From UHGV virus genome UHGV-1794847: a DNA stretch of 21,029 nt. One strand, written 5' to 3'. Shown one piece after another: positions 502-17,878 of the stretch (positions within the stretch are counted from its first letter, which is position 1; each line of letters opens with the position of its first letter). The position numbers and the translations under genes were made by a program. Below the pieces are notes generated by a model. It did not search any database. It was not told the DNA's origin and saw only the letters and a list, made by a program, of their open reading frames with translations. Source of the stretch: a virus.

Positions 502-1992
502 TTATGCCTTTTTAGATTTGCGCTTTGCAGCAACTACGACTTCTGCTACGATAGCTTCTACAGTAGCTTCAGTTACAACAGACTTGTCTGCAACTTTTAC
601 AAGAGCTGCATGCAACTTGTAGTTGCCGACTTTGCTGAAAGTGCACTTGAATTCTGTTGTTGCGTTGTATTCTGCAGGTACTGCAAAGCCGCTGTCAGGA
701 CCCCATGCACCACTGTCTTCGAATGTCCAAGGCTGACCCTGTGAATCTGTTGCAGTGAATGTCACATGACCATCTTCAGGTGCTTCTACAATTTCATATT
801 GCAGCTGAACGCCATCAACACCTGCCTTACCAACTACTTCAGTTGCAAGCGTTGCATTGATTGCTACTTCTGTTGCAGGCTGAATGCTTGCAGGGACATC
901 TACAGAAATCTTGTATTCTGATACTTCAGGCTGAACTGGCTCAGCAACAACTACTGTAGACTCTGCTTCAACAACTACACTGTCATCAGCAACCTTGGCA
1001 AGAACTGCATGCAATTTGTATGTGCCAGCCTTGCTAAAGATTACAGTGAACTTTGTAGTTGCATTGTATTCTGCAGGAATGTCAAAGCCTGTTGCAGGCC
1101 CCCAAGTGCCATTGTCGACAAATGTATATTCCTTGCCAGCAGCGTCAGTAGCCTTGAATGTCACATGGCCATCTTCAGGTGCTTCGTCTACACCATAGCG
1201 GAACTGAACTTTGTCAACACCGACATCACCAACAGTCTTCGTTTTGAATGTTGCATCAAGCTCAACTTCAGTGTTTTCGATGATTGTTTCAGGCGCAGAC
1301 ATTTCAAACTCATACTCAGATACTGTTTGCACAGCTTGTTCAAGTTTGATGTTCTTTGTCTTGTTTGAAATCATAGTTTCACGACCAGCCTGGCTAACGT
1401 AGCCCTCTTTAGACACTTCCCAGACAATTTCTTCGCCTGACAAAACAGTCAACGAATTGCGAACTTCACCATTCATCTTGACAACTGCATCTGCAGGTTC
1501 TACATTGATTGTCAGTGTAGCTTTGCTGAGCTCAACAAGCTCCACTACTTGAATGACATCATGGTTTGTGAGCGTGATTGTGCCCTCCTGAGATTCATAG
1601 CCCTCTTTCGACACTTCCCACTTAATTGGAATGCCTGCGGGCACATTCTCAAGCATCTTTGTAGCCTCACCATTGATTTCTACATGAGCATCTTCAGGCA
1701 CTGGCTGAATTGTGATGCTGAACTTGTCTTTGCCAGGTTCAGGGTCTGGTCCGGGTCCTGGGTCATCACCAGTAATTGCAGGGATAATTGTCTTTTCGAT
1801 GACTTTTTGAGCTTCTGCAGTTGTGCCATAGAATTTGAGAGTTTTCTTGGCTTCTTCTACAGACATTTTCTCAAGATTGTCTGCAAGATATGTCAGACCA
1901 GTGACTGCAGCAATTTTCTGCCGCATTTCTGGGCTAATGACTACACCAGTAGATTTGACCACTGGAGCAGCTTGTTTTTGTTTCTTTGCCAT
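502..1992 (-). CDS. Repeat-containing surface/structural-like protein: Pro/Gly/Asp-rich linker, two PEGA-like repeats, two Ig-like ~105-aa repeats
   Basis: ATG at 1990..1992, TAA at 502..504. Two ~60-aa repeats with PEDAHVEINGE / PADAVVKMNGE and WEVSKEGY signatures resembling the PEGA domain; two C-terminal repeats sharing VEAPEDGHVTF..WGP..PAEYNATT..FSK.G.YKLHA. Linker GDDPGPGPDPEPG. Domain names are from memory of family signatures. Confidence 0.75.
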   Translation of the reverse strand: MAKKQKQAAPVVKSTGVVISPEMRQKIAAVTGLTYLADNLEKMSVEEAKKTLKFYGTTAEAQKVIEKTIIPAITGDDPGPGPDPEPGKDKFSITIQPVPEDAHVEINGEATKMLENVPAGIPIKWEVSKEGYESQEGTITLTNHDVIQVVELVELSKATLTINVEPADAVVKMNGEVRNSLTVLSGEEIVWEVSKEGYVSQAGRETMISNKTKNIKLEQAVQTVSEYEFEMSAPETIIENTEVELDATFKTKTVGDVGVDKVQFRYGVDEAPEDGHVTFKATDAAGKEYTFVDNGTWGPATGFDIPAEYNATTKFTVIFSKAGTYKLHAVLAKVADDSVVVEAESTVVVAEPVQPEVSEYKISVDVPASIQPATEVAINATLATEVVGKAGVDGVQLQYEIVEAPEDGHVTFTATDSQGQPWTFEDSGAWGPDSGFAVPAEYNATTEFKCTFSKVGNYKLHAALVKVADKSVVTEATVEAIVAEVVVAAKRKSKKA

Positions 1993-2135: not shown

Positions 2136-3428
2136 CTACAACAATGACGGCACTCGTTGAGTTTCAAGTGGGTCACTGACATTGATGCCTGTGTATGCAA
2201 CAAGTCGTTGTATTGGGCCAAGCACGAGTTTTTCGAACATGAGTCGCTTATTCATTGGTGGCACATCTGGCATGTACTTAGGCGTTGGCATTTCACCTGG
2301 CGCAAAGCCAAATGCATCGCAATATTGACGAGAACCAATTGGGATATTTGACAAATCTGACTTTGCTCTATCGACGAAATAGTAGAACACTCTACCGCCT
2401 TCAATCAATGTATATCGTGTTTCCAATCCATGAGCTTTTACAAGTGCGTTATGGTATGCACAAGCCCTGTACTGAGGCAGTACGCCTTTTGCTAACTGCC
2501 ATTCGCCATCATAGCTTAGCACATAGTCATGATACTTGTTTGCATTGACATATGCACAAAGTTTCTCCAAGTCTTGCTCGGCTTCAAAGCGTTTCCATAA
2601 TTTCTGTATGAGCTTTGGATATGTCGCAGAAGTCAATTCACCTCTGAACATTTTCTTGAATGCATAATCAAGCATTTGCCTAACAAGCATTGATGAGCCT
2701 GTTTGAATAAGTTCGATGCCTTTGCCTTGAATGTGCTCAGTAGGGTCTTCGAATACTCGACCATCTACATATATTTGAGCCTTTAAGTACTTTTTCTTTT
2801 GGGCAAATAATGCAGTGTCAGAAATCGTTTCGAGGTCAAATAGCAAAATTGAATTGCCATGACGTTTTGCGAGGTCTGCTGCATATGCCCCATTGAATAA
2901 TTCTTCCATACGATATTTGAATATCGCAAGAATCAAGTCATACCAATTTTTGCCTATGTAGCCAATTGATTTGACAGTTGGCTCAAAGTGAATGTACAAA
3001 GAGTCTGTGTCAATATACAACACTTTGTCTTCATAGGGTTCTTGCTTTGGCGACACAGACAAATCAAAATTGCCCTTCAATTGTGGGTCATTACGCAGCT
3101 TTTCATGCAATTCATAATCACACCACCACTTATTGTTAAGATAGTCATTTGCTACTCGTTCACCAAAGTGAATGAAGTTGCGGCCTTCAGCAGTAATTGA
3201 TTCTGCAACAGCCATATTAAAGAAGTGATAGAAACGATTGCTTGTAGCGCCATATATTGAGTTTCGACAACATTTTGCTGAGACTTGTAGTCCTGCATGC
3301 TTTAGTGATTCTTGCATTGCAAAATCTCTCAATTCAAATAGACGTTCAGTAGACAACTGACTCAAATCACCAGTCAAATCTACTCCATCTATTTCAATTT
3401 TTGACATATCTATCTGAGCTTCTGCCAT
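2136..3428 (-). CDS. Family-B DNA polymerase, C-terminal part (motif B, motif C, thumb)
   Basis: Motif B KCCRNSIYG verified at 3249..3275 (K-x3-NS-x-YG) and motif C YIDTDS at 3000..3017 (YGDTDS-type). Stop TAG at 2136..2138. Start set to ATG at 3426..3428; the track's 3518 start is a TTG codon, and an alternative ATG exists at 3459..3461. Confidence 0.85.
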   Translation of the reverse strand: MAEAQIDMSKIEIDGVDLTGDLSQLSTERLFELRDFAMQESLKHAGLQVSAKCCRNSIYGATSNRFYHFFNMAVAESITAEGRNFIHFGERVANDYLNNKWWCDYELHEKLRNDPQLKGNFDLSVSPKQEPYEDKVLYIDTDSLYIHFEPTVKSIGYIGKNWYDLILAIFKYRMEELFNGAYAADLAKRHGNSILLFDLETISDTALFAQKKKYLKAQIYVDGRVFEDPTEHIQGKGIELIQTGSSMLVRQMLDYAFKKMFRGELTSATYPKLIQKLWKRFEAEQDLEKLCAYVNANKYHDYVLSYDGEWQLAKGVLPQYRACAYHNALVKAHGLETRYTLIEGGRVFYYFVDRAKSDLSNIPIGSRQYCDAFGFAPGEMPTPKYMPDVPPMNKRLMFEKLVLGPIQRLVAYTGINVSDPLETQRVPSLL

Positions 3429-3448
3429 AAGTTGTTTATTTTTGATTT

Positions 3449-3459
3449 TATTGTACAAC
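3449..3459 (-). promoter_or_regulatory. Conserved GTTGTACAATA element (sense strand), 20 nt upstream of the polymerase C-part ATG
   Basis: Plus-strand tattgtacaac at 3449..3459; identical 11-mer also at 8225..8235 and 10317..10327, each upstream of a minus-strand start. Contains a TACAAT -10-like hexamer and the palindrome TTGTACAA. Confidence 0.35.
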
Positions 3460-3496
3460 ATGCAAAACGAGTTTGCACTGTTTTGATACAACGACA

Positions 3497-4459
3497 CTAA
3501 ACTTTTACATGACCACAATCAAACACAGGATAAAATTGCCGTTGTAGCATAGTATTTGTGTCAAAATTGCCATCAATAAGATGTTCGTGTGTGCGCCAAT
3601 TATGCCAATGTTTTTGAATTGTCTGCAAGTTATCTGATTTTTGTGGATTCAATGCAAAGTCTGTTGATAGCACAGGTTCATTGTTCAAATGCGCTTGTAT
3701 TGCTGCAATAACTGCTTCAACAGACATCCACTCAAATGCAGTCACACAAATAAAACCTGCACGCAATGCATCTTGAGTTTTGTAAAAGTGATATGTTGGA
3801 TGAGTTGCTGCGCATTTTGATGCATTTTTGACAAGTGCATCAAAGCTTTTTGCGCTGTTATGCGACACTGTTGGATTGATTTCTACTACGACATTGTCAT
3901 ATCGCAAATCATACAACTTTAAGCCTATTCTGTAGTCATATTCAAAATTTATGCCAAGACGTTCAAATAGCAATGCATGCCAACGTTCATTAAGTTTTGA
4001 CTGTATTTGACCAGATGCTGCTCTGCATTTTGCATGCATGCAAAAATACGGCACATCATATCGCTCTTCACATGTTTGACGCAACTTAGCAATGTTTGCA
4101 GGCCCAAGCTTGCCAAAATGCTTAAGCTTAGTTGCATTTGCTTTGTCAGTATTGCTTGGACCTGCTTTGCCAAAATGTTCAAGCTTTGTCGCATTCGCTT
4201 TGTCAGTATTGCCTGGTCCAAGCTTGCCAAAATGTTTAAGCTTAGTCTGCTTGCATTGCTCTGTTACATATGATAACTGCATATTGTGTTCTACACCATA
4301 TTTTCGCAACATTGCAATTCGCCTGATGTATTTTCTACGAATTTTGCTGTGCGACGTCTTTCTTGGTGCGTATCTAACATATGGTGTATTTGCAATCAAC
4401 TCATCTCGCTCGTTTTCAAGTTTAGCAATACGAGCATCAATCTCTTCTTTTGTCATCAT
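3497..4459 (-). CDS. Repeat-containing putative DNA-binding / homing-endonuclease-like protein, class unassigned
   Basis: ATG at 4457..4459. Three tandem 19-aa repeats (TKLKHFGKLGPGNTDKANA) encoded by a 57-bp DNA repeat; basic N-terminus. Sits between the two polymerase halves, where freestanding endonucleases typically reside. No GIY-YIG or HNH motif recognised; the motif LYDLRYDNVVVEINPTVSH is only loosely nuclease-like. Confidence 0.55.
   Translation of the reverse strand: MMTKEEIDARIAKLENERDELIANTPYVRYAPRKTSHSKIRRKYIRRIAMLRKYGVEHNMQLSYVTEQCKQTKLKHFGKLGPGNTDKANATKLEHFGKAGPSNTDKANATKLKHFGKLGPANIAKLRQTCEERYDVPYFCMHAKCRAASGQIQSKLNERWHALLFERLGINFEYDYRIGLKLYDLRYDNVVVEINPTVSHNSAKSFDALVKNASKCAATHPTYHFYKTQDALRAGFICVTAFEWMSVEAVIAAIQAHLNNEPVLSTDFALNPQKSDNLQTIQKHWHNWRTHEHLIDGNFDTNTMLQRQFYPVFDCGHVKV
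4101..4260 (-). repeat. 57-bp in-frame tandem repeat, about 2.8 copies, inside CDS 3497..4459
   Basis: Units starting near 4108, 4165 and 4222 (gcttgccaaaatgcttaagcttagttgcatttgctttgtcagtattgc and variants); period 57 = 19 codons. Confidence 0.8.
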
Positions 4460-4467
4460 AGCAATTC

Positions 4468-4501
4468 AAAAAATGCAGCAGCAGATGTTCTGCTGCTGCA
4501 T
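4468..4501 (-). terminator. Intrinsic terminator between the SSB-like gene and the endonuclease-like gene
   Basis: Perfect 12-bp stem atgcagcagcag (4473..4484) / ctgctgctgcat (4490..4501), loop atgtt, preceded on plus by an A-run 4468..4472 (a T-run after the hairpin on the minus strand). It ends about 10 nt from the next ATG at 4459. Confidence 0.6.
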
Positions 4502-4543
4502 CGGCAGGTATCTTCACATGTGTTTGAGTTGATTACGATGTGA

Positions 4544-5371
4544 TTAGAATGGCAGGTCGCCATCGTCACCTGCAGCGTCAAATTCAGCTGCAATGTCATA
4601 TACCAACGTCATTGCGATTCGCAAATCGCGCTTCTTAGACTTCAGGCGCATGATATCATGACCAGAATTGTTTGTGATGACTGAACATTCAAACTCTTCA
4701 TTGCCATCAATAAATGACAGCATTGATTTGTGAATTGTGATTGGCGACAAATCAGATGGGTAATTTGCATCAATCACATATTCAAAGTTGTTGTTCTTGG
4801 CAATTAGCCCTCGTTCAGTCGTACGAATCTCAATGCCGGGCAATTCCTTGTCACCAGTATTCAATGAACCATACGATGACATGATGCCAAAGTGATTTGA
4901 CGTCAAATCGAGCTTTCTCAGATTTGTTGTGCTATCAAACAACATTGACATATCATTGTCAGACAGCTCAAAGTAGCCAAGTGATGGCATTGAACAAACC
5001 TGATTGATTTTGAGCTGATTGTTTGAGATTACAATGAGCTCTGCAATTGTATCTGTACCAATTTGTTTGACATAGATTTCAATCATTGCAGATGAGCCAA
5101 ATGCAGCAAGTACTCGATTGTTGAATTGCGTGCCATTGTAAATGAGCGCTTTGACTGTGACATCTTTGAGTGTAGACTCATAATGTTCGCAAATGTCAAG
5201 CACATTAAGTATCTGCGACTTTACAAAGCTACTATTGCCAGCATCAGTTCTGATTCGCTGGTCATTGAGTGAAAAGCTAAGCTTGCCATCGCATTTTAAT
5301 GATGATGCAAACAATGCTCGCAGCATATCAACGTTTGCATTGCGTAATGTAATTTTGTTCAGATTTTCCAT
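4544..5371 (-). CDS. Putative ssDNA-binding protein (SSB-like acidic C-terminal tail)
   Basis: ATG at 5369..5371. C-terminus ...AAEFDAAGDDGDLPF mirrors the acidic tail ending in Phe of bacterial SSB (DDDIPF) and T7 gp2.5; located in the replication module. Fold not verified. Confidence 0.5.
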   Translation of the reverse strand: MENLNKITLRNANVDMLRALFASSLKCDGKLSFSLNDQRIRTDAGNSSFVKSQILNVLDICEHYESTLKDVTVKALIYNGTQFNNRVLAAFGSSAMIEIYVKQIGTDTIAELIVISNNQLKINQVCSMPSLGYFELSDNDMSMLFDSTTNLRKLDLTSNHFGIMSSYGSLNTGDKELPGIEIRTTERGLIAKNNNFEYVIDANYPSDLSPITIHKSMLSFIDGNEEFECSVITNNSGHDIMRLKSKKRDLRIAMTLVYDIAAEFDAAGDDGDLPF

Positions 5372-5439
5372 CTTGTATCTATGTTGTTGATTTTCAATTT
5401 AATATATTGAACAACATTTGTTGACATTTTGCAACATTG

Positions 5440-5814
5440 TCATCGATTGTCGCCTGACCCATGTAGTACGCCTCGTAATTTTCGAGACTGCAGTTTCTGA
5501 ATGTTAAGCTGACAAATGTCAGTTAAGCTGTAGCCCAAATCATGTGCAAGAGTTGCAGCGTACCACATGACATCACTGAGCTCTTTTGCGATTTCCTTGC
5601 GAATGTCTTCATTGTCAAAATCGCCATTCTTGTCTCGAATGACTTTTTTGACTTTGTCTGCAACTTCGCCTGCTTCACCCGTTAAGCCAAGTGTTGGATA
5701 GATAATTGCAGCTGATTTAGGATACACTGCGCTATCAAGTGCAGCAATCTGATATTCATCAATAGTTGAAATCTGTGCATGGTCGATTACGCCATGTTCA
5801 TCTCGTTTAAGCAT
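5440..5814 (-). CDS. mazG: MazG-like nucleoside triphosphate pyrophosphohydrolase
   Basis: ATG at 5812..5814. Motifs LGLTGEAGEVADKVKK and ELSDVMWYAATLAHDLGYSL match the MazG EEXX(E/D) helix signature common in phages. Confidence 0.8.
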   Translation of the reverse strand: MLKRDEHGVIDHAQISTIDEYQIAALDSAVYPKSAAIIYPTLGLTGEAGEVADKVKKVIRDKNGDFDNEDIRKEIAKELSDVMWYAATLAHDLGYSLTDICQLNIQKLQSRKLRGVLHGSGDNR

Positions 5815-5815
5815 A

Positions 5816-6307
5816 TCATTTACGTTTTTGTTTGACTCTCAATCGTTTTTGCATAAATGCTCTTGTAGCTTCACCAAAAGCCATTTCATCTCGTTCACCG
5901 CCGCAAAGCTTTGCAAGCTTATTGAATGTGTCTTGGTCAATCATTGTGTATGTTGAGTTGTTGACCACATGCAATGCAAACTGAATCAGCGGTGTGCCTG
6001 GCTGCAAGCAGAATGGCTCTTTACCTGCATTGTACACTGCAAGATGAATCTCGCCATGATAGTCTGAATCTACAAACTCACTTGTTTTAATGATAAGATG
6101 ATTTCGTGAAATACCCGACTTGTTGTAGGCAATCAATGCATGACCAGCAGGCACAAGTGCTTTGATGCCAGATGGAATTGCAATGCCCTCGCCAGGTTGC
6201 AGCATTGTTTGCACAAAATCATTGGGTATGCAAAAGTCCCATGCGCCAGATTCTGCTGTTGACTTAAAAGGACTTTCTACATTTCTGCATTTTGCAAAGA
6301 ATAACAT
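5816..6307 (-). CDS. dut: dUTPase-like protein (dUTPase/dCTP deaminase superfamily)
   Basis: ATG at 6305..6307, stop TGA at 5816..5818, one nt before the MazG start. Motif-like segments SGAWDF, KSGISRNH, FVDSDYHGEI (compare G-x-ID-x-DYRGE), LIQF, and a C-terminal Gly-rich GGERDEMAFGEAT. Confidence 0.7.
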   Translation of the reverse strand: MLFFAKCRNVESPFKSTAESGAWDFCIPNDFVQTMLQPGEGIAIPSGIKALVPAGHALIAYNKSGISRNHLIIKTSEFVDSDYHGEIHLAVYNAGKEPFCLQPGTPLIQFALHVVNNSTYTMIDQDTFNKLAKLCGGERDEMAFGEATRAFMQKRLRVKQKRK

Positions 6308-6330
6308 ATTAAGTATGCGTTTGTATGTTG

Positions 6331-6675
6331 TTAGTACATTTCTCGTTTAACAAGAGCTTTGCGTTTTGAGCGTAGCCCAGCCCTATTACGCAATTCTACA
6401 GACCAATCACGAATCATTTGCCATGCAATCCCACCACGTTGAATACCACCGTGCTTGAACATTTCATTGCAAATGCCTTGAATAAACACTGCGTCAAACT
6501 TTGTCAGTGCATCGACAATTTGACCATGTGTATCTTCTGATTTGACATCATTGCAAAGCTTAAGCTCATCTACTGAAAGTTCACCAAGCAGCTCATAGTA
6601 ATATATGAGAGCTTTGCGTGCGGCAATTGCTTTTCTTGAATTGCCAGAATAAGACAAAGTTACATGTTTGCTCAT
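6331..6675 (-). CDS. Hypothetical protein (114 aa from ATG)
   Basis: ORF 6331..6681 in the track begins at TTG; first ATG at 6673..6675. 20-nt gap to the polymerase N-part stop. Confidence 0.55.
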   Translation of the reverse strand: MSKHVTLSYSGNSRKAIAARKALIYYYELLGELSVDELKLCNDVKSEDTHGQIVDALTKFDAVFIQGICNEMFKHGGIQRGGIAWQMIRDWSVELRNRAGLRSKRKALVKREMY

Positions 6676-6695
6676 ATTCAATTATTGTTATGGTG

Positions 6696-8201
6696 TTACA
6701 ATTTGATTGCACCTCTACGAGCAAGCTCTTCTTCAATCAATCTAACATGATTGTTAGCATACCAAAATTGCAATTTTTTGTGATAATTGCGAATGTCGCC
6801 AAGCTGTTCTTGAGTTTCTTTATACATTGAAGGCTCTCTATTGTCATACAGACAATTATTGACAGACACAAAGTAATTTGGGTCTGCTTTGTAATGCTCG
6901 ATTTCATCAGGATTTGTCAAACGTCTAATAAAGTTGTCTGGTGAAATATTCGCCGAGCGCATACTTGACGGATACAACGAGTTTGCATCAACACAGACAA
7001 CCATACGAGCCCAATGGTTAAATGGCTGCTTAACAAAGCCGCCCTCAAATGAATGTACAACATTCTCCGGACCGCCTTGAGCGCATACAACTTTACCGCC
7101 ATATTTGTTGTACAAATATGTCATCATGACGCCCTCAGATTGCTTAACTGGTCCTTGACAGTGATTCATGTCAATATTTGTCATATTTGACAATGACATT
7201 ACATTTGATATCAAGTCAGTTTTTGCAGCAATCATCGCATTGACCATCGTATCGACAGCATTATATGCAATGAACGTGCATGGATGATACAAATACAGCT
7301 CTTTAAGTGTGCAATCATAGGGCAGCTTACCTACGCCAAACATACGATGTGCAATATAGTCAAGTCGCAATGACTCTTTTTGCCACACTGAATAGTCGTA
7401 TGTGTCCATGAGTTGCATGTAGTCATCAATGTACTTGTGATATGGCATGCCATTGCCCCAGACAGTTCTGCCAACTGGAGATGCCAATGCTAAATCAATA
7501 TTGTGCATTGCGCATCGATTTTTGATATAGATGCTATCGAAGCCATTGATGTTCCAACCTGTCAATGCAGGAATGTTTTTGAAGAGCTTAGTCACCCAAA
7601 AATGCAACAATTCATGCTCATTTGCATGTTGAAAGATTTTGACAGTCGGACGCTCTTTCAAATATGCAGCAAAGCAATGCTGACCCATGTACTCTTGAAT
7701 GATGTTATTGACAAACTCAAATGCATCGTCCAGTGTTGGGTTTTGTTTGCCACAGCTTTTGCGCAAATCATCGTCATTCAACAAGTCAACAGTTGTCTGA
7801 ATGACACAATTACATTGCTCATCACATGTACTTATTGCATTAATGGGCATTTCAGCTTTGTCAGGCTTTGGAAAGCCATTGCCAATTTCAGTCTCAATAT
7901 CGTAAAAGTACAACTTTGGTCTACGATAAGCAAACAATTCAGCTTTGTCAGCTTCAGGCAATTCAAATAAGAATTGCAGTAAGTCAAATTGATTGAATCG
8001 CTTTGCTGTAACTCGAGTTACTGGCAATTTGCGCCAATCTTGAATATCTGCATATTGCGGCTCTACATGGTCTGATATTTGCCATACTGGAAATTGATAT
8101 GGCTGTTCACAGACAGGATATGTTTTAATATCAATGCCACCTTGCTCATTAACGTATGAAACTTCAATGCCATGTGACAAATATGCTACATCGACAATCA
8201 T
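6696..8201 (-). CDS. Family-B DNA polymerase, N-terminal part (3'-5' exonuclease domain plus motif A)
   Basis: Exo I FYDIETE (about 7893..7901), Exo II-like WNINGFD, Exo III-like YNAVD, and motif A DANSLYPS verified at 6966..6989. Ends with TAA at 6696..6698 about 100 aa after motif A, before any motif B. Start set to ATG 8199..8201; the track's 8237 start is TTG. Confidence 0.9.
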   Translation of the reverse strand: MIVDVAYLSHGIEVSYVNEQGGIDIKTYPVCEQPYQFPVWQISDHVEPQYADIQDWRKLPVTRVTAKRFNQFDLLQFLFELPEADKAELFAYRRPKLYFYDIETEIGNGFPKPDKAEMPINAISTCDEQCNCVIQTTVDLLNDDDLRKSCGKQNPTLDDAFEFVNNIIQEYMGQHCFAAYLKERPTVKIFQHANEHELLHFWVTKLFKNIPALTGWNINGFDSIYIKNRCAMHNIDLALASPVGRTVWGNGMPYHKYIDDYMQLMDTYDYSVWQKESLRLDYIAHRMFGVGKLPYDCTLKELYLYHPCTFIAYNAVDTMVNAMIAAKTDLISNVMSLSNMTNIDMNHCQGPVKQSEGVMMTYLYNKYGGKVVCAQGGPENVVHSFEGGFVKQPFNHWARMVVCVDANSLYPSSMRSANISPDNFIRRLTNPDEIEHYKADPNYFVSVNNCLYDNREPSMYKETQEQLGDIRNYHKKLQFWYANNHVRLIEEELARRGAIKL

Positions 8202-8212
8202 ATTATTATCTT

Positions 8213-8623
8213 TTAGAATAGAGATATTGTACAACAATTTGATTCAGGTTGCCATTCTACAATATGCGCATCAAAGTGTTTGTTAAGCCAATGTGCAAGT
8301 ATGTGTCTATGACAAAATGCAGATGGTCTGCACCAGCATAACAGTACAATGTCTCGTTCACCAGCAAGAAGCTTTATGCGATGCAGCATCAAACTTATCT
8401 GTGACAATGCAGCGTCAAGTTTTGCAGTGTATTGCTCTGCATATTGTGCATTGTCAAGCAAGCCTACTTTATGCAAACGAACAAGTGACATGTAATCAGG
8501 CATGACGTCAGTCCATGTAAAATCTGCTATGAAGCCCTTAGGTTTTGTTGCAGATACTTGAACAAGAAATGCGTTATCAGGCAGATGCCTGCATGCATAA
8601 TATGAAGTCAAGATTCTTGTCAT
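8213..8623 (-). CDS. DUF488-like protein
   Basis: ATG at 8621..8623, overlapping the upstream stop as ATGA. C-terminal RDIVLLCWCRPSAFCHRHILAHWL resembles the conserved LLC..E....CHR.l.a..L block of DUF488 (YeaO-like) proteins, recalled from memory. Confidence 0.5.
   Translation of the reverse strand: MTRILTSYYACRHLPDNAFLVQVSATKPKGFIADFTWTDVMPDYMSLVRLHKVGLLDNAQYAEQYTAKLDAALSQISLMLHRIKLLAGERDIVLLCWCRPSAFCHRHILAHWLNKHFDAHIVEWQPESNCCTISLF
8225..8235 (-). promoter_or_regulatory. Conserved GTTGTACAATA element, 23 nt upstream of the polymerase N-part ATG
   Basis: Plus tattgtacaac at 8225..8235; same 11-mer as at 3449..3459 and 10317..10327. Confidence 0.35.
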
Positions 8624-12252: not shown

Positions 12253-12561
12253 ATGCAAACACAAGAAGTTTTAACGGATGTCATTGACATGTCACAATCA
12301 GCTCGCAATTATGCGCTTGGCGCTGTATGTGACGCAGAAGAGCATGAAGATGCTGTTGAAGCAGTTATCGAAGATTACATGCAAGGCGCAAGAGAAATGT
12401 ACGTCAAGTTGACTACATTTGTCAATGTCAATGATGCAGTGCCTGCAAATAACTACCCAGTCATTGCAAAGCTTGCAAATGATTCATATACAATTGCAAC
12501 ATTTGAAAATGACATGTGGTCAGTTGACCATATTGTTGCGTGGCGCAAGTTGCACATTTAA
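12253..12561 (+). CDS. Small acidic protein (102 aa); only plus-strand gene in the window
   Basis: ATG at 12253..12255 after an AT-rich divergent intergenic region; TAA at 12559..12561 followed by a terminator. About 17 D/E versus 6 K/R. The track's longer 12019 start would translate the AT-rich intergenic region and the antisense of the neighbouring gene. Confidence 0.55.
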   Translation: MQTQEVLTDVIDMSQSARNYALGAVCDAEEHEDAVEAVIEDYMQGAREMYVKLTTFVNVNDAVPANNYPVIAKLANDSYTIATFENDMWSVDHIVAWRKLHI

Positions 12562-16085: not shown

Positions 16086-16979
16086 CTATGTCAATGCAAT
16101 GAAGACATCACCAGACTGTTCAGCTTCAAGCTCTTTTTCGACTTGTTGTTGCATTGTTTGACCTTTTGATGCAAGTCTATCAAAGTTAATGCGAACATTG
16201 CCAGGCAACTTGAAGTCATATGTGCCAATGATATCTGCAAGTTCTTGCATGCATTGACCTGTGCAGTATCTCAAGAAACGTCTGTCTTCATACAATGACT
16301 GCAGTGGCACTCTTACCCAACACATCAACACCAAATCAGACCCTTCATTATCACCAAGAATGTTCAGCTTATGACTAAATCTGTTGAAGTTATATGTGAT
16401 TGTTCGTTGTAGAATGCTTTCATATGTGCCAATTTCATACATTGTCACCCACAAGTCATCTGCAATTGATGCATTTTGAGAACCTGCAGGTCCAGCGTAG
16501 TTAAATGACACACCATTTGCCTCACTGTAGAAATTGATTGAATTGCTAAGCAGTCGTTCAAGATAGAAATTTGCACGCCGCATTGACAGTTTATGCTGCG
16601 ATTCAAGTAGCTGAACATCTGATACAGCCCAGATTTGTGGCGGCAATTTGACAATTTTGTTTGCGCCATCAGTCATGTCAATATCGCGAACAACAAACCA
16701 GCGCTCTTCAAGAGCAGACTCAGAATGTTCAAAAAACCATTCTGCACAAGTCTCAATGATTTGTGGCATACGAGTCTTCGGAATTGCAAATGGCAATGCA
16801 CAGCCTCGTGTGACTTCTTGTACAAGTCGCTCAATAAATCGCAAGTCTACGCTGTAGTCATATCGAGAATTGATATTTTCGACTTCAGGCTTATTGCACT
16901 CATTTGTTGTTGCGCCTTCGACTTTCCAAGAAGTTGCGCCGTCATTGATTGGTGGTGCTGGTTTACGTTGAACTTTCAT
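16086..16979 (-). CDS. Hypothetical protein (297 aa)
   Basis: ATG at 16977..16979 (MKVQRKPAPP); stop at 16086 followed by a terminator. Confidence 0.75.
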   Translation of the reverse strand: MKVQRKPAPPINDGATSWKVEGATTNECNKPEVENINSRYDYSVDLRFIERLVQEVTRGCALPFAIPKTRMPQIIETCAEWFFEHSESALEERWFVVRDIDMTDGANKIVKLPPQIWAVSDVQLLESQHKLSMRRANFYLERLLSNSINFYSEANGVSFNYAGPAGSQNASIADDLWVTMYEIGTYESILQRTITYNFNRFSHKLNILGDNEGSDLVLMCWVRVPLQSLYEDRRFLRYCTGQCMQELADIIGTYDFKLPGNVRINFDRLASKGQTMQQQVEKELEAEQSGDVFIALT

Positions 16980-17003
16980 GCTTGATAACGTTGAACTTTC
17001 ATG
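16965..17003 (-). repeat. 16-bp direct repeat acgttgaactttcatg duplicating the start region of gene 16086..16979
   Basis: Copies at 16965..16980 and 16988..17003; the upstream copy creates a second ATG (17000..17002) opening an 8-codon ORF MKVQRYQA whose TGA (16976..16978) overlaps the main ATG. Confidence 0.7.
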
Positions 17004-17188
17004 TGTCTTGTATATGGTCTACGGTGTGTGAAACACTCTACGGTATGATGTTGAAATTGACTGCAAGCAACAATGATGTGACATCTTCGCCCAATAGAAA
17101 TGAACCTGTAGCAAAACCAACGGCATCAAGTTGATTTGTAAACGTGCTCAGCGGCAATGTCAGTATGATGTAGCCTAACTTAACAGAG

Positions 17189-17198
17189 CCCCCCCCCC
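17189..17198. repeat. Homopolymeric C10 tract (G10 on minus strand) in the 287-bp intergenic region
   Basis: cccccccccc at 17189..17198 within otherwise AT-rich non-coding sequence 16980..17266. Confidence 0.8.
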
Positions 17199-17266
17199 GT
17201 GTTTTGCGAGCGATAGTGGTCTTGAGTTACATGTGACATATATGAAATGTTTGTTTGAATATGTAT

Positions 17267-17878
17267 TTATGGTGTAACAATCGGTCCGCCACCAGGCAAA
17301 CTTGAACATGTTTGCATGTATGTATACAACAAATTTCCTGCGTTTTGCATAATGTTTGCGAACATCAATGCAATGCCGCGCAAATCAGCTTCGCCTTCAA
17401 ATGTGTTGATAAATGCTTGCTGAGCGCATGCAAACATTACTGGCACAGTAGATGCACTTGTCATTGCTATCACAGGTCCGCCAGGCGACAAGGGCAACAC
17501 CGGTGGCGATGCTGGCACAGTTAAGTTTGTTGGAATCCATGCTGCAACTGCTGCAGCATAAGGCTTAAAGCCATTGCCAAACTTTATTGCAATGTTCTTT
17601 GGGTCTGATTCACCTTGAAAAGTTTCTATAAGTGCTTGTCTACCTGCTTCAAATAGAGATTGCTCAAGTGTAGCAGTTGGACCTGCAGTTATTGGACCGC
17701 CGACAGGCAAACCTGTGCAAGTTGCAATGTAGCTTGCTACACCCGTAGCAAACAATTGACTGAATTTGTTGGCAAACTTTGTCGCAATTTGCGGTCTATC
17801 AAGCTCACCTTGAAAAGTTGCAGTGTATGCTTGATATGCAATGGGCTGCACAGCAGCTTGCAATGTAGCGCCTGGCAT
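17267..17878 (-). CDS. Triple-repeat protein (three ~65-aa repeats)
   Basis: ATG at 17876..17878. Repeats share TF(Q/E)GE.D....IA.KF.N ... LP.GGPI; the DNA shows three degenerate ~200-bp tandem repeats. Confidence 0.7.
   Translation of the reverse strand: MPGATLQAAVQPIAYQAYTATFQGELDRPQIATKFANKFSQLFATGVASYIATCTGLPVGGPITAGPTATLEQSLFEAGRQALIETFQGESDPKNIAIKFGNGFKPYAAAVAAWIPTNLTVPASPPVLPLSPGGPVIAMTSASTVPVMFACAQQAFINTFEGEADLRGIALMFANIMQNAGNLLYTYMQTCSSLPGGGPIVTP

What the first reader, a model, noticed from the sequence alone, without database searches (positions are those of the whole stretch)
16980..17266. Longest non-coding stretch in the window carries a C10 homopolymer
The 287-bp gap between the upstream gene block and gene 16086..16979 is the largest intergenic region here and contains a 10-nt C run (17189..17198) in otherwise AT-rich DNA, plus a CTACGGT direct repeat (about 17018..17045). 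Homopolymers of this length are slippage-prone, so it may be a length-variable switch; it could also mark a genome terminus or packaging-related site, or be an assembly artefact. No tRNA cloverleaf is evident.
Basis: seen in the sequence. Interest (0 to 1): 0.4.

Follow-up and report, generated by a model that had tools for sequence, protein, structure and literature searches.

The report
Broken phage gene with slippery G-run
The "non-coding gap with a C10 run" is the wreck of two small accessory genes of a large gut phage, and the C10 is an over-grown, slippage-prone run of glycine codons that differs in length between related phage genomes and shifts the reading frame.

Summary
C10 lies at 17189-17198 and is the only homopolymer of 8 or more in 21 kb (about 0.004 expected). 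The 287-nt gap is the largest between long ORFs.

The gap is not primary non-coding DNA. All flanking genes are on the minus strand, where the run reads G10. It sits directly after a 13-codon leader, MSHVTQDHYRSQN, whose ATG is at 17239.

About 20 related assemblies (a roughly 175-kb phage; several sample names suggest human-gut cohorts) carry one or two small genes in this slot, between a 203-aa gene and a T4-gp13-like neck gene. Every one starts with this leader, and all types but one follow it with a G-run.

A 99.8%-identical relative has two genes here, A and B. The window lacks 777 nt between two GTTGGTT copies, which fuses the start of A to the end of B.

The run varies across genomes: G5, G6, GGGTGGGGG, G10, G11. 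A contig 99.97% identical to the window carries G11. G10 is out of frame and leaves a 19-codon stub.

All three independent deletion remnants are frame-shifted at the run. So are three otherwise intact genes in relatives.

"Length-variable" is supported. A working switch in this window, a genome end and an RNA gene are not supported. Read-level heterogeneity could not be tested.

The parts
17267..17878 (-). Upstream conserved gene of 203 aa with three internal repeats. It forms the left border of the variable slot.
   Evidence: ORF. It is 97-100% conserved in all relatives, with dN/dS 0.04-0.2. No family hit.
17201..17239 (-). Conserved 13-codon leader MSHVTQDHYRSQN, with its ATG at 17239-17237. 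It is shared by every gene type found in this slot.
   Evidence: Six-frame search and slot translations. Synonymous changes between types (CAC/CAT, TAT/TAC, CGT/AGA) show that it is conserved as a peptide.
17189..17198 (-). G10 on the sense strand, which is the reported C10. It is an expanded Gly-codon tract directly after the leader and is out of frame by +1.
   Evidence: Alleles of the same tract are G5, G6, GGGTGGGGG and G11 in relatives. GGG makes up only 4% of Gly codons in this genome.
17180..17239 (-). The only reading frame open from the leader ATG with G10. It is a 19-codon stub, MSHVTQDHYRSQNTGGGLC, followed by TAA.
   Evidence: Translation and (frame f0 of window_rc).
17038..17187 (-). 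Body frame of the remnant: SVKLGYIILTLPLSTFTNQLDAVGFATGSFLLGEDVTSLLLAVNFNIIP, then a stop. It would join the leader only if the tract were G9 (or G6 or G12).
   Evidence: The first 22 codons match gene A of L007. The last 27 match the C-terminus of gene B.
17115..17121 (-). Deletion junction. GTTGGTT is a microhomology present once in gene A and once in gene B of the undeleted relative. The 777 nt between the two copies are missing here.
   Evidence: The two blastn segments of L007 and L008 overlap at window 17115-17121. Junction alignment.
17172..17172 (-). Apart from the tract length, the only difference from contig ERZ27261429 k119_6621 over about 8 kb. The window has T where all relatives have C (His to Tyr in the remnant frame).
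17018..17044 (+). Two copies of TCTACGGT (ACCGTAGA on the sense strand). The first sense-strand copy contains the stop codon of the gene B remnant.
   Evidence: Present in all slots that end with gene B and absent from slots that end with gene C. The first copy is imperfect in L010 and L016.
16965..17002 (-). Imperfect 23-nt tandem duplication of the start of the neck gene (15 nt exact). The upstream copy forms an 8-codon mini-ORF, MKVQRYQA, whose TGA overlaps the true ATG as ATGA.
   Evidence: Found in every slot that ends with gene B. Slots that end with gene C instead have that gene's own stop overlapping the neck gene's ATG.
16086..16979 (-). Downstream conserved gene of 297 aa, a neck protein like T4 gp13. 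It forms the right border of the variable slot.
   Evidence: PF26809 Phage_T4_gp13 is on record for this protein. Weak hit to phrog_211. tblastn matches proteins annotated as 'neck protein' in Chryseobacterium and Tenacibaculum phages. dN/dS 0.02-0.12.

Best explanation
The 287-nt gap is a dead remnant of two small accessory genes, A and B. In sister genomes these sit intact between the 203-aa gene and the gp13-like neck gene. A 777-nt deletion between two copies of GTTGGTT joined the first 40 or so codons of A, in frame, to the last 27 codons of B. The C10 is G10 on the coding strand. It is the Gly-codon tract that follows a conserved 13-residue leader in nearly every gene type of this slot. 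In the nearest undeleted relative the tract reads GGGTGGGGG and is in frame. One T-to-G change would make an uninterrupted G9, and replication slippage then gives G10 (this window) or G11 (a near-identical contig). With G10, translation from the leader ATG stops after 19 codons. Shown here: the origin by deletion, the tract polymorphism and the frame consequences. Inferred: the tract changes by slipped-strand mispairing. The remnant is carried along on the transcript that runs into the neck gene and has no function of its own. In intact copies elsewhere, the same tract can turn the gene off and possibly on again.
For: Deletion origin:
- L007 and L008 are 99.8% identical to the window on both sides of the slot. 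They carry 1063 nt where the window has 287.
- The two blastn segments overlap by exactly the 7-nt GTTGGTT, and the junction alignment shows the switch from the A side to the B side there.

Tract alleles in gene A:
- G6 in frame (L002, L011).
- GGGTGGGGG in frame (L007, L008).
- G5 out of frame (L010).
- G10 (window) and G11 (L005), both out of frame.
- The window and contig k119_6621 differ only by this one G and one further base 17 nt downstream of the tract, over about 8 kb.

The run is not a product of codon usage:
- GGG is 12 of 299 Gly codons.
- There are no GGG-GGG pairs in 5895 codons.
- No other G or C run exceeds 5.

Frame state in remnants and in intact genes:
- All three independent deletion remnants are frame-shifted at the tract: window/L005 (A'B'), L024 and seven other samples (F'C', G6), and L038 (E'C', G8).
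- Most intact genes are in frame: A twice, A2, B in four lineages, E in three.
- Three otherwise intact genes are shifted only at the tract: L010 A, L010 B and L035 B.

No sign of another function in the gap:
- No tRNA, no Rfam match, fold z-score +1.29, and no promoter-like or terminator-like site.
Against: - The exact tract length rests on short-read metagenome assemblies. A G9 mis-called as G10 would leave a 66-codon open frame.
- Whether such a chimera of one N-terminal segment of A and the last strand of B could do anything was not tested.
- No reads were available, so slippage within a population is not shown directly.
- G6 is identical in eight samples of one accession series, so short tracts are not visibly unstable.
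- A and B show dN/dS above 1 in close comparisons. That argues the intact genes are under selection rather than merely decaying. The slot as a whole is therefore not just a gene graveyard.
Confidence: 0.8

Rival explanations
1. The run is a working phase-variation switch in this genome. Slippage between G9, G10 and G11 turns a small 66-aa (G9) or roughly 90-aa (G11, alternative upstream ATG) protein on and off, or modulates translation of the neck gene downstream.
For: - G9 would join the leader to the 49-codon body.
- G11 joins the body to an ATG inside the end of the 203-aa gene (L005 frame f2). The same arrangement was gene-called as a 144-aa protein in L010.
- Tract length differs between near-identical contigs.
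- A G-run is kept after the leader in six gene types despite the rarity of GGG codons.
Against: - The body is a chimera that keeps only about 22 residues of A and the last 27 of B. In the B model those 27 residues are a single terminal strand of a beta-sandwich.
- Both observed lengths are out of frame with the conserved leader.
- Two other independent deletion remnants are also out of frame.
- The alternative-frame N-terminus is simply the other reading of the end of the 203-aa gene plus the leader.
Confidence: 0.1
2. The run length, or the run itself, is a sequencing or assembly artefact.
For: - Long G-runs are hard for short-read chemistry.
- Two assemblies of nearly the same genome disagree by one G.
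- One Logan contig (L026) ends exactly at the G8 tract of a relative.
Against: - A G-rich tract occurs at the same codon position in more than 15 independent assemblies from ENA, Logan and IMG/VR, in six gene types.
- Alleles as short as G5 and G6, or interrupted ones such as GGGTGGGGG, are not error-prone. They still differ from one another.
- The run is mid-contig and flanked by unique sequence.
Confidence: 0.08
3. The gap is a regulatory or RNA-coding region: a promoter for the neck gene, a terminator, or a small RNA.
For: - It lies upstream of a structural gene.
- It holds an 8-nt direct repeat found nowhere else in the window.
- It holds a mini-ORF coupled to the neck gene's start codon.
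Against: - No sigma-70-like or Bacteroidota-type promoter match and no terminator-like site lies in it.
- No Rfam hit even at E of 1 or less.
- The fold is no better than shuffled sequence, z = +1.29.
- In slots that end with gene C, the neck gene starts on the stop codon of the upstream gene and has none of this sequence. The neck gene therefore does not need it.
Confidence: 0.03
4. The gap marks a genome terminus or packaging site.
For: None beyond its being the longest gap.
Against: - The slot lies internally in contigs of 174.6 and 175.6 kb, and in others of 46-124 kb, with the same genes on both sides.
- Its sequence is replaced wholesale between genomes.
Confidence: 0.01

Closest known systems
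Hypermutable polyG tracts in Campylobacter (Fletchervirus) phage genes. Source: Sorensen et al. 2021, Cell Rep 35:109214, seen here only as cited in PMC10877375 and PMC12823448. Details of that system are from my own knowledge.
   Same: A G homopolymer lies inside a phage open reading frame. Its length differs between closely related genomes and decides whether the gene is read in frame.
   Different: This is a different phage lineage, distant kin of Chryseobacterium, Tenacibaculum and Sphingomonas PAU-type large myoviruses. The tract sits right after a shared 13-residue leader in exchangeable small genes of unknown function. No population-level or phenotypic evidence exists here. In this window the gene behind the tract is already destroyed.
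Bacterial simple-sequence contingency loci: slipped-strand mispairing at homopolymers, as summarised in PMC10877375.
   Same: The inferred mechanism is the same, namely replication slippage at a run near the 5' end of an ORF. The run is retained against the genome's codon preference.
   Different: The locus is in a virus. Switching rate and reversibility were not measured. Other kinds of lesion in the same slot (nonsense codons, deletions, frameshifts elsewhere) point to decay as well as switching.
Hyperplastic (plasticity) regions between conserved core genes of T4-type phages, and T4 internal proteins that share a short N-terminal capsid-targeting leader. Both from my own knowledge, not tested here.
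   Same: A slot between conserved structural genes holds different small genes in different isolates. Unrelated protein bodies share a short conserved N-terminal peptide. In T4, the position immediately upstream of gene 13 is occupied by wac, which encodes the neck whiskers.
   Different: There is no sequence similarity to wac or to the internal proteins. The leader was found only in this slot. Whether the proteins are in the virion, or whether the leader is cleaved, is unknown.

Membership tests
Phase-variable (contingency) gene driven by a homopolymer | A homopolymer long enough to slip (about 7 or more) lies inside an ORF or its promoter. | tested here: met
   G10 lies directly after codon 14 of the leader-initiated frame.
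Phase-variable (contingency) gene driven by a homopolymer | Tract length is polymorphic among very close relatives or within one population. | tested here: met
   Met between assemblies: G10 against G11 at 99.97% identity, and G5, G6 and an interrupted 9-mer in other relatives. Within-sample heterogeneity could not be tested without reads. G6 was invariant in eight samples.
Phase-variable (contingency) gene driven by a homopolymer | The length change toggles an otherwise intact, functional gene. | tested here: not met
   In the window the gene behind the tract is a 49-codon A/B chimera left by a 777-nt deletion. The feature is met in relatives: L010 A, L010 B and L035 B are intact apart from the tract.
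Phase-variable (contingency) gene driven by a homopolymer | Reversible switching at high rate, with a phenotype. | not testable with these tools
   This needs reads, a cultured phage or reporter assays.
Genome terminus or packaging (cos/pac) site | It lies at the physical end of the genome, or is conserved as a site across relatives. | tested here: not met
   The slot is internal in 175-kb contigs and its sequence is not conserved between relatives.
tRNA or known structured RNA | A cloverleaf or covariance-model match, or a fold more stable than shuffled sequence. | tested here: not met
   ARAGORN found none. Rfam found none at gathering score or at E of 1 or less. Fold z = +1.29.
Diversity-generating retroelement target | Adenine-specific variation confined to a short variable repeat, with a template repeat and a reverse transcriptase nearby. 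| tested here: not met
   Variable sites are spread over the whole of A and B, and about 30% of them involve no A. No second copy of A or B lies in the 21-kb window or in the fetched stretches (roughly 10 kb each) of the two IMG/VR genomes. No reverse transcriptase appears among the window ORFs scanned. The rest of the 175-kb genomes was not examined.
T4 gp13-type neck gene (the slot's downstream border) | Match to PF26809 or to annotated neck proteins. | tested here: inconclusive
   A precomputed PF26809 hit is on record for this exact protein. tblastn gives 25-30% identity to annotated neck proteins. My own Pfam scans, down to E of 1, returned nothing.

The most novel reading that the evidence does not exclude
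The slot upstream of the neck gene is a phage contingency locus. It holds a set of exchangeable, fast-evolving small beta-sandwich proteins, at least six body types. Each is tagged by the same 13-residue N-terminal leader and, in five or more types, gated by a hypermutable poly-G tract directly after that leader. Phage populations would then carry ON and OFF variants of virion-accessory or host-interaction proteins. The window would hold a burnt-out copy of such a gene.
Probability: 0.25. Interest if true: 0.6.

Novelty: new member of a known kind. Interest (0 to 1): 0.4.

Why it matters
The window feature itself is a pseudogene remnant and matters mainly for annotation. It should not be called an intergenic regulatory region, and the homopolymer should be flagged as length-uncertain.

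The comparative picture it opens is of moderate interest. A family of large phages that probably infect Bacteroidota, recovered from metagenome assemblies several of whose sample names suggest human-gut cohorts, keeps a G-run against its own codon usage. The run sits at the start of interchangeable, rapidly evolving small genes next to the neck gene, and it is repeatedly found in and out of frame.

If switching is confirmed with reads or culture, this would extend poly-G phase variation in phages beyond the Campylobacter phages where I know it to be documented. It would also give a handle on accessory proteins that vary between strains of one gut phage.

Tried and rejected
- **tRNA, Rfam, RNA fold, promoters and terminators.** All negative: tRNA, Rfam at gathering score and at E of 1 or less, RNA fold, sigma-70 promoter and terminator scan, Bacteroidota-type promoter pattern.
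- **Megablast of the region against INPHARED phages.** No match.
- **Leader DNA in JGI metagenome contigs.** No match. In IMG/VR only the two copies in one genome matched. The leader is therefore not a genome-wide or widespread motif.
- **Gene C against the 'head completion protein' upstream of the neck gene in Tenacibaculum phage PTm1.** No similarity. No PDB relative either.
- **Diversity-generating retroelement as the cause of dN/dS above 1.** Rejected. The excess of A/G changes is what a filter for conservative amino-acid changes gives.
- **Profile search with the leader alone against the 5.8-billion-protein set.** It returned only two truncated proteins and missed known members. It says nothing about how widespread the leader is.
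- **A three-state switch using alternative upstream ATGs.** Considered because L005 and L010 are in frame with another ATG. Judged a coincidence of an open alternative frame.

Full report
**Observation**

The window reads as a phage segment with almost all genes on the minus strand. The reported C10 is at 17189-17198. It is the only homopolymer of 8 or more in 21 kb. The next longest G or C run is C5, and base composition predicts about 0.004 G/C runs of 10 or more. The gap 16980-17266 (287 nt) is the largest between long ORFs; the next are 143, 125 and 109 nt. The CTACGGT repeat is real and is 8 nt long (TCTACGGT at 17018 and 17037). These are the only two copies in the window, against 0.08 expected. 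The gap is not AT-rich: 41.5% GC against 40.2% overall.

**Context**

- The downstream gene (16086-16979, minus strand) is a neck protein of the T4 gp13 type. A PF26809 hit is on record for it. tblastn gives 25-30% identity to annotated neck proteins of Chryseobacterium and Tenacibaculum phages. My own Pfam scans did not reproduce the hit.
- The upstream genes include a baseplate-hub-like protein.
- The family-B DNA polymerase is closest to those of large Bacteroidota phages and Sphingomonas phage PAU.
- Close relatives are two IMG/VR contigs of 174.6 and 175.6 kb and many ENA and Logan metagenome contigs. Several ENA sample names (ZEEV15, ZHAN20, ZHAN23) suggest human-gut cohorts to me. That is my reading of the names, not a tool result.

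**What the gap is**

On the coding (minus) strand an ATG at 17239 opens MSHVTQDHYRSQN-T-GGG. The Gly codons are the G10. The frame then stops after 19 codons.

One frame over lies an open stretch, SVKLGYIIL...NFNIIP (17187-17038). In relatives this slot is 345 to 1093 nt long and holds one or two small genes.

The nearest relatives are L007 and L008, 99.8% identical to the window on both sides. They have gene A (122 aa) and gene B (about 185 aa) here, in 1063 nt. The window matches A up to a GTTGGTT and matches B from a second GTTGGTT onwards. The 777 nt between are absent.

The gap is therefore an in-frame A'-B' deletion fusion. It keeps about 22 body residues of A and the last 27 residues of B. 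In an AlphaFold model of B (pLDDT 71, all-beta) those 27 residues form the final strand. In L007 and L008, gene B already carries a TAA nonsense codon.

**The run**

In gene A of the relatives the same tract takes several forms:

| Locus | Tract | Frame relative to the leader |
|---|---|---|
| L007, L008 | GGGTGGGGG | in frame |
| L002, L011 | G6 | in frame |
| L010 | G5 | out of frame |
| window | G10 | out of frame |
| L005 (contig ERZ27261429 k119_6621) | G11 | out of frame |

That last contig differs from the window over about 8 kb only by this one G and by one base 17 nt downstream of the tract. A single T-to-G change in GGGTGGGGG gives G9. G10 and G11 follow by one-base slips. This step is inferred, not observed.

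The run is not explained by codon usage. GGG is 12 of 299 Gly codons, and no GGG-GGG pair occurs in 5895 codons of the window.

**The slot as a whole**

At least six body types occur here: A, a related A2, B, C, E, and an F seen only as a fusion. A decayed D is also present. All begin with MS[HRTN]V[TA][QRK][DE]H[YF]R[SA]QN. Synonymous differences between copies (CAC/CAT, TAT/TAC, CGT/AGA) show peptide-level conservation. All types but C follow the leader with a G-rich tract:

| Gene type | Tract alleles seen |
|---|---|
| B | G7, G6, GGGGAGG, GGGGGAGG, GGAGGGGGG |
| E | G9, G8, G7TG4, GGTGGTGGGGCG |
| A2 | G8 |
| D | G8 |
| F | G6 |

Frame status falls into three groups:
- Intact genes are mostly in frame.
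- Three otherwise intact genes are shifted only at the tract: L010 A, L010 B and L035 B.
- All three independent deletion remnants are shifted at the tract: the window type, the L024 type found in eight samples, and L038.

Other lesions also occur. There is a TAA in leader codon 7 of gene C in L001, and there are frameshifts in C of L019, L022 and L023. One contig (L026) ends exactly at a G8. G6 was identical in eight samples of one accession series, so short tracts look stable.

**Selection**

| Sequence compared | dN/dS | Note |
|---|---|---|
| Flanking genes | 0.02-0.2 | dS 0.12-0.34 |
| Gene A | 1.9-9.5 | 1 synonymous against 32 non-synonymous differences between L002 and L007 |
| Gene B, close comparisons | 1.9-3.0 | |
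| Gene B, against a distant allele | 0.26-0.52 | |
| Genes C and E | 0.18-0.65 | |

By a hand binomial calculation, the 1:32 split in gene A departs from the neutral expectation at p of about 0.004. The intact genes are thus not simply neutral.

A diversity-generating retroelement was considered and rejected. Variation is spread along whole genes and is not adenine-specific. No template copy lies in the DNA at hand.

**Function of the intact genes**

This remains unknown. There are no Pfam or PHROG hits. Structural matches for B are only to generic beta-sandwich folds. A role as a neck-associated or host-interaction accessory protein is a conjecture. It rests on position (in T4, from my own knowledge, wac sits upstream of gene 13), on the shared leader, and on fast evolution.

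**Other readings of the gap**

- There is no tRNA, Rfam family, stable fold, promoter-like or terminator-like site.
- The gap is not a genome end.
- The start of the neck gene is preceded by a 23-nt imperfect tandem copy of itself. This forms an 8-codon mini-ORF whose stop overlaps the true ATG.
- Slots that end with gene C instead overlap that gene's stop with the neck gene's ATG. The neck gene is therefore probably translated by coupling within a long transcript. That is an inference.

**Verdict**

The stretch is nonetheless a frame-shifted deletion remnant, not a regulatory spacer, terminus or RNA gene.

The closest known kind is the hypermutable polyG tract of Campylobacter phages (cited) and bacterial contingency loci. 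Membership as a working switch fails in this window, because there is no intact gene behind the tract. It is plausible for the intact genes of relatives.

The exact length (plus or minus 1) and any within-population heterogeneity need reads.

Noticed in passing
window 2136-3518 and 6696-8237 (minus strand), with 3497-6681 between them: The family-B DNA polymerase is split into two ORFs. The N part matches phrog_262 positions 111-489 and the C part matches 497-842. They are separated by about 3.2 kb holding five ORFs. These include a MazG-like pyrophosphatase (5440-5814), a dUTPase (5816-6307) and a DUF7487 protein with a faint homing-endonuclease hit (3497-4459).
   Followed up: partly
window 16965-17002 (minus strand): There is a 23-nt imperfect tandem duplication of the neck gene's start, 15 nt of it exact. 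It creates an 8-codon mini-ORF, MKVQRYQA, whose TGA overlaps the real ATG. It occurs in every relative whose slot ends with gene B. It may be a footprint of cassette exchange or a translational-coupling device.
   Followed up: partly
L002 2966-3337 and 3385-3942; L007, L010, L016, L035: Slot genes A and B have dN/dS well above 1 in close comparisons (A: 1 synonymous against 32 non-synonymous differences). Their synonymous divergence (0.015-0.06) is far below that of the flanking genes (0.16-0.32). This suggests recent spread of the cassette by recombination, followed by diversifying selection.
   Followed up: partly
L001 3513-3533; L007 about 2758-2762: In-frame TAA codons occur in otherwise conserved reading frames. 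One is at leader codon 7 of gene C in IMGVR contig 149023, where GAA is found in relatives. The other is in gene B of L007 and L008, where CAA is found in relatives. They read as nonsense mutations. Stop-codon reassignment was not examined.
   Followed up: no
window 17267-17878 (minus strand): The 203-aa protein is made of three internal repeats of about 60-70 aa. Each carries the motif FQGExD...IAxKFxNxF and ends in LP.GGPI. It has no Pfam or PHROG family and is highly conserved (by eye).
   Followed up: no
window 21029; L013 position 1; L026 position 1: The window's last base coincides with the first base of contig ERZ27261429 k119_6621, so two assemblies break at the same point. Separately, Logan contig DRR868928_1495 ends exactly at the G8 tract of gene A2. 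This is consistent with assembly trouble or heterogeneity at the run.
   Followed up: no
window 12256-12561 (plus strand): This is the only plausible plus-strand gene in the window, about 101 aa and acidic, starting MQTQEVLTDVID. It is set between minus-strand genes. No family hit for the enclosing 180-aa ORF.
   Followed up: no
window 502-1992 (minus strand): This 496-aa protein has a head-fibre dimeric domain (PF25641, 6.9e-22) and a PEGA domain, so it is a likely capsid decoration or fibre protein.
   Followed up: no
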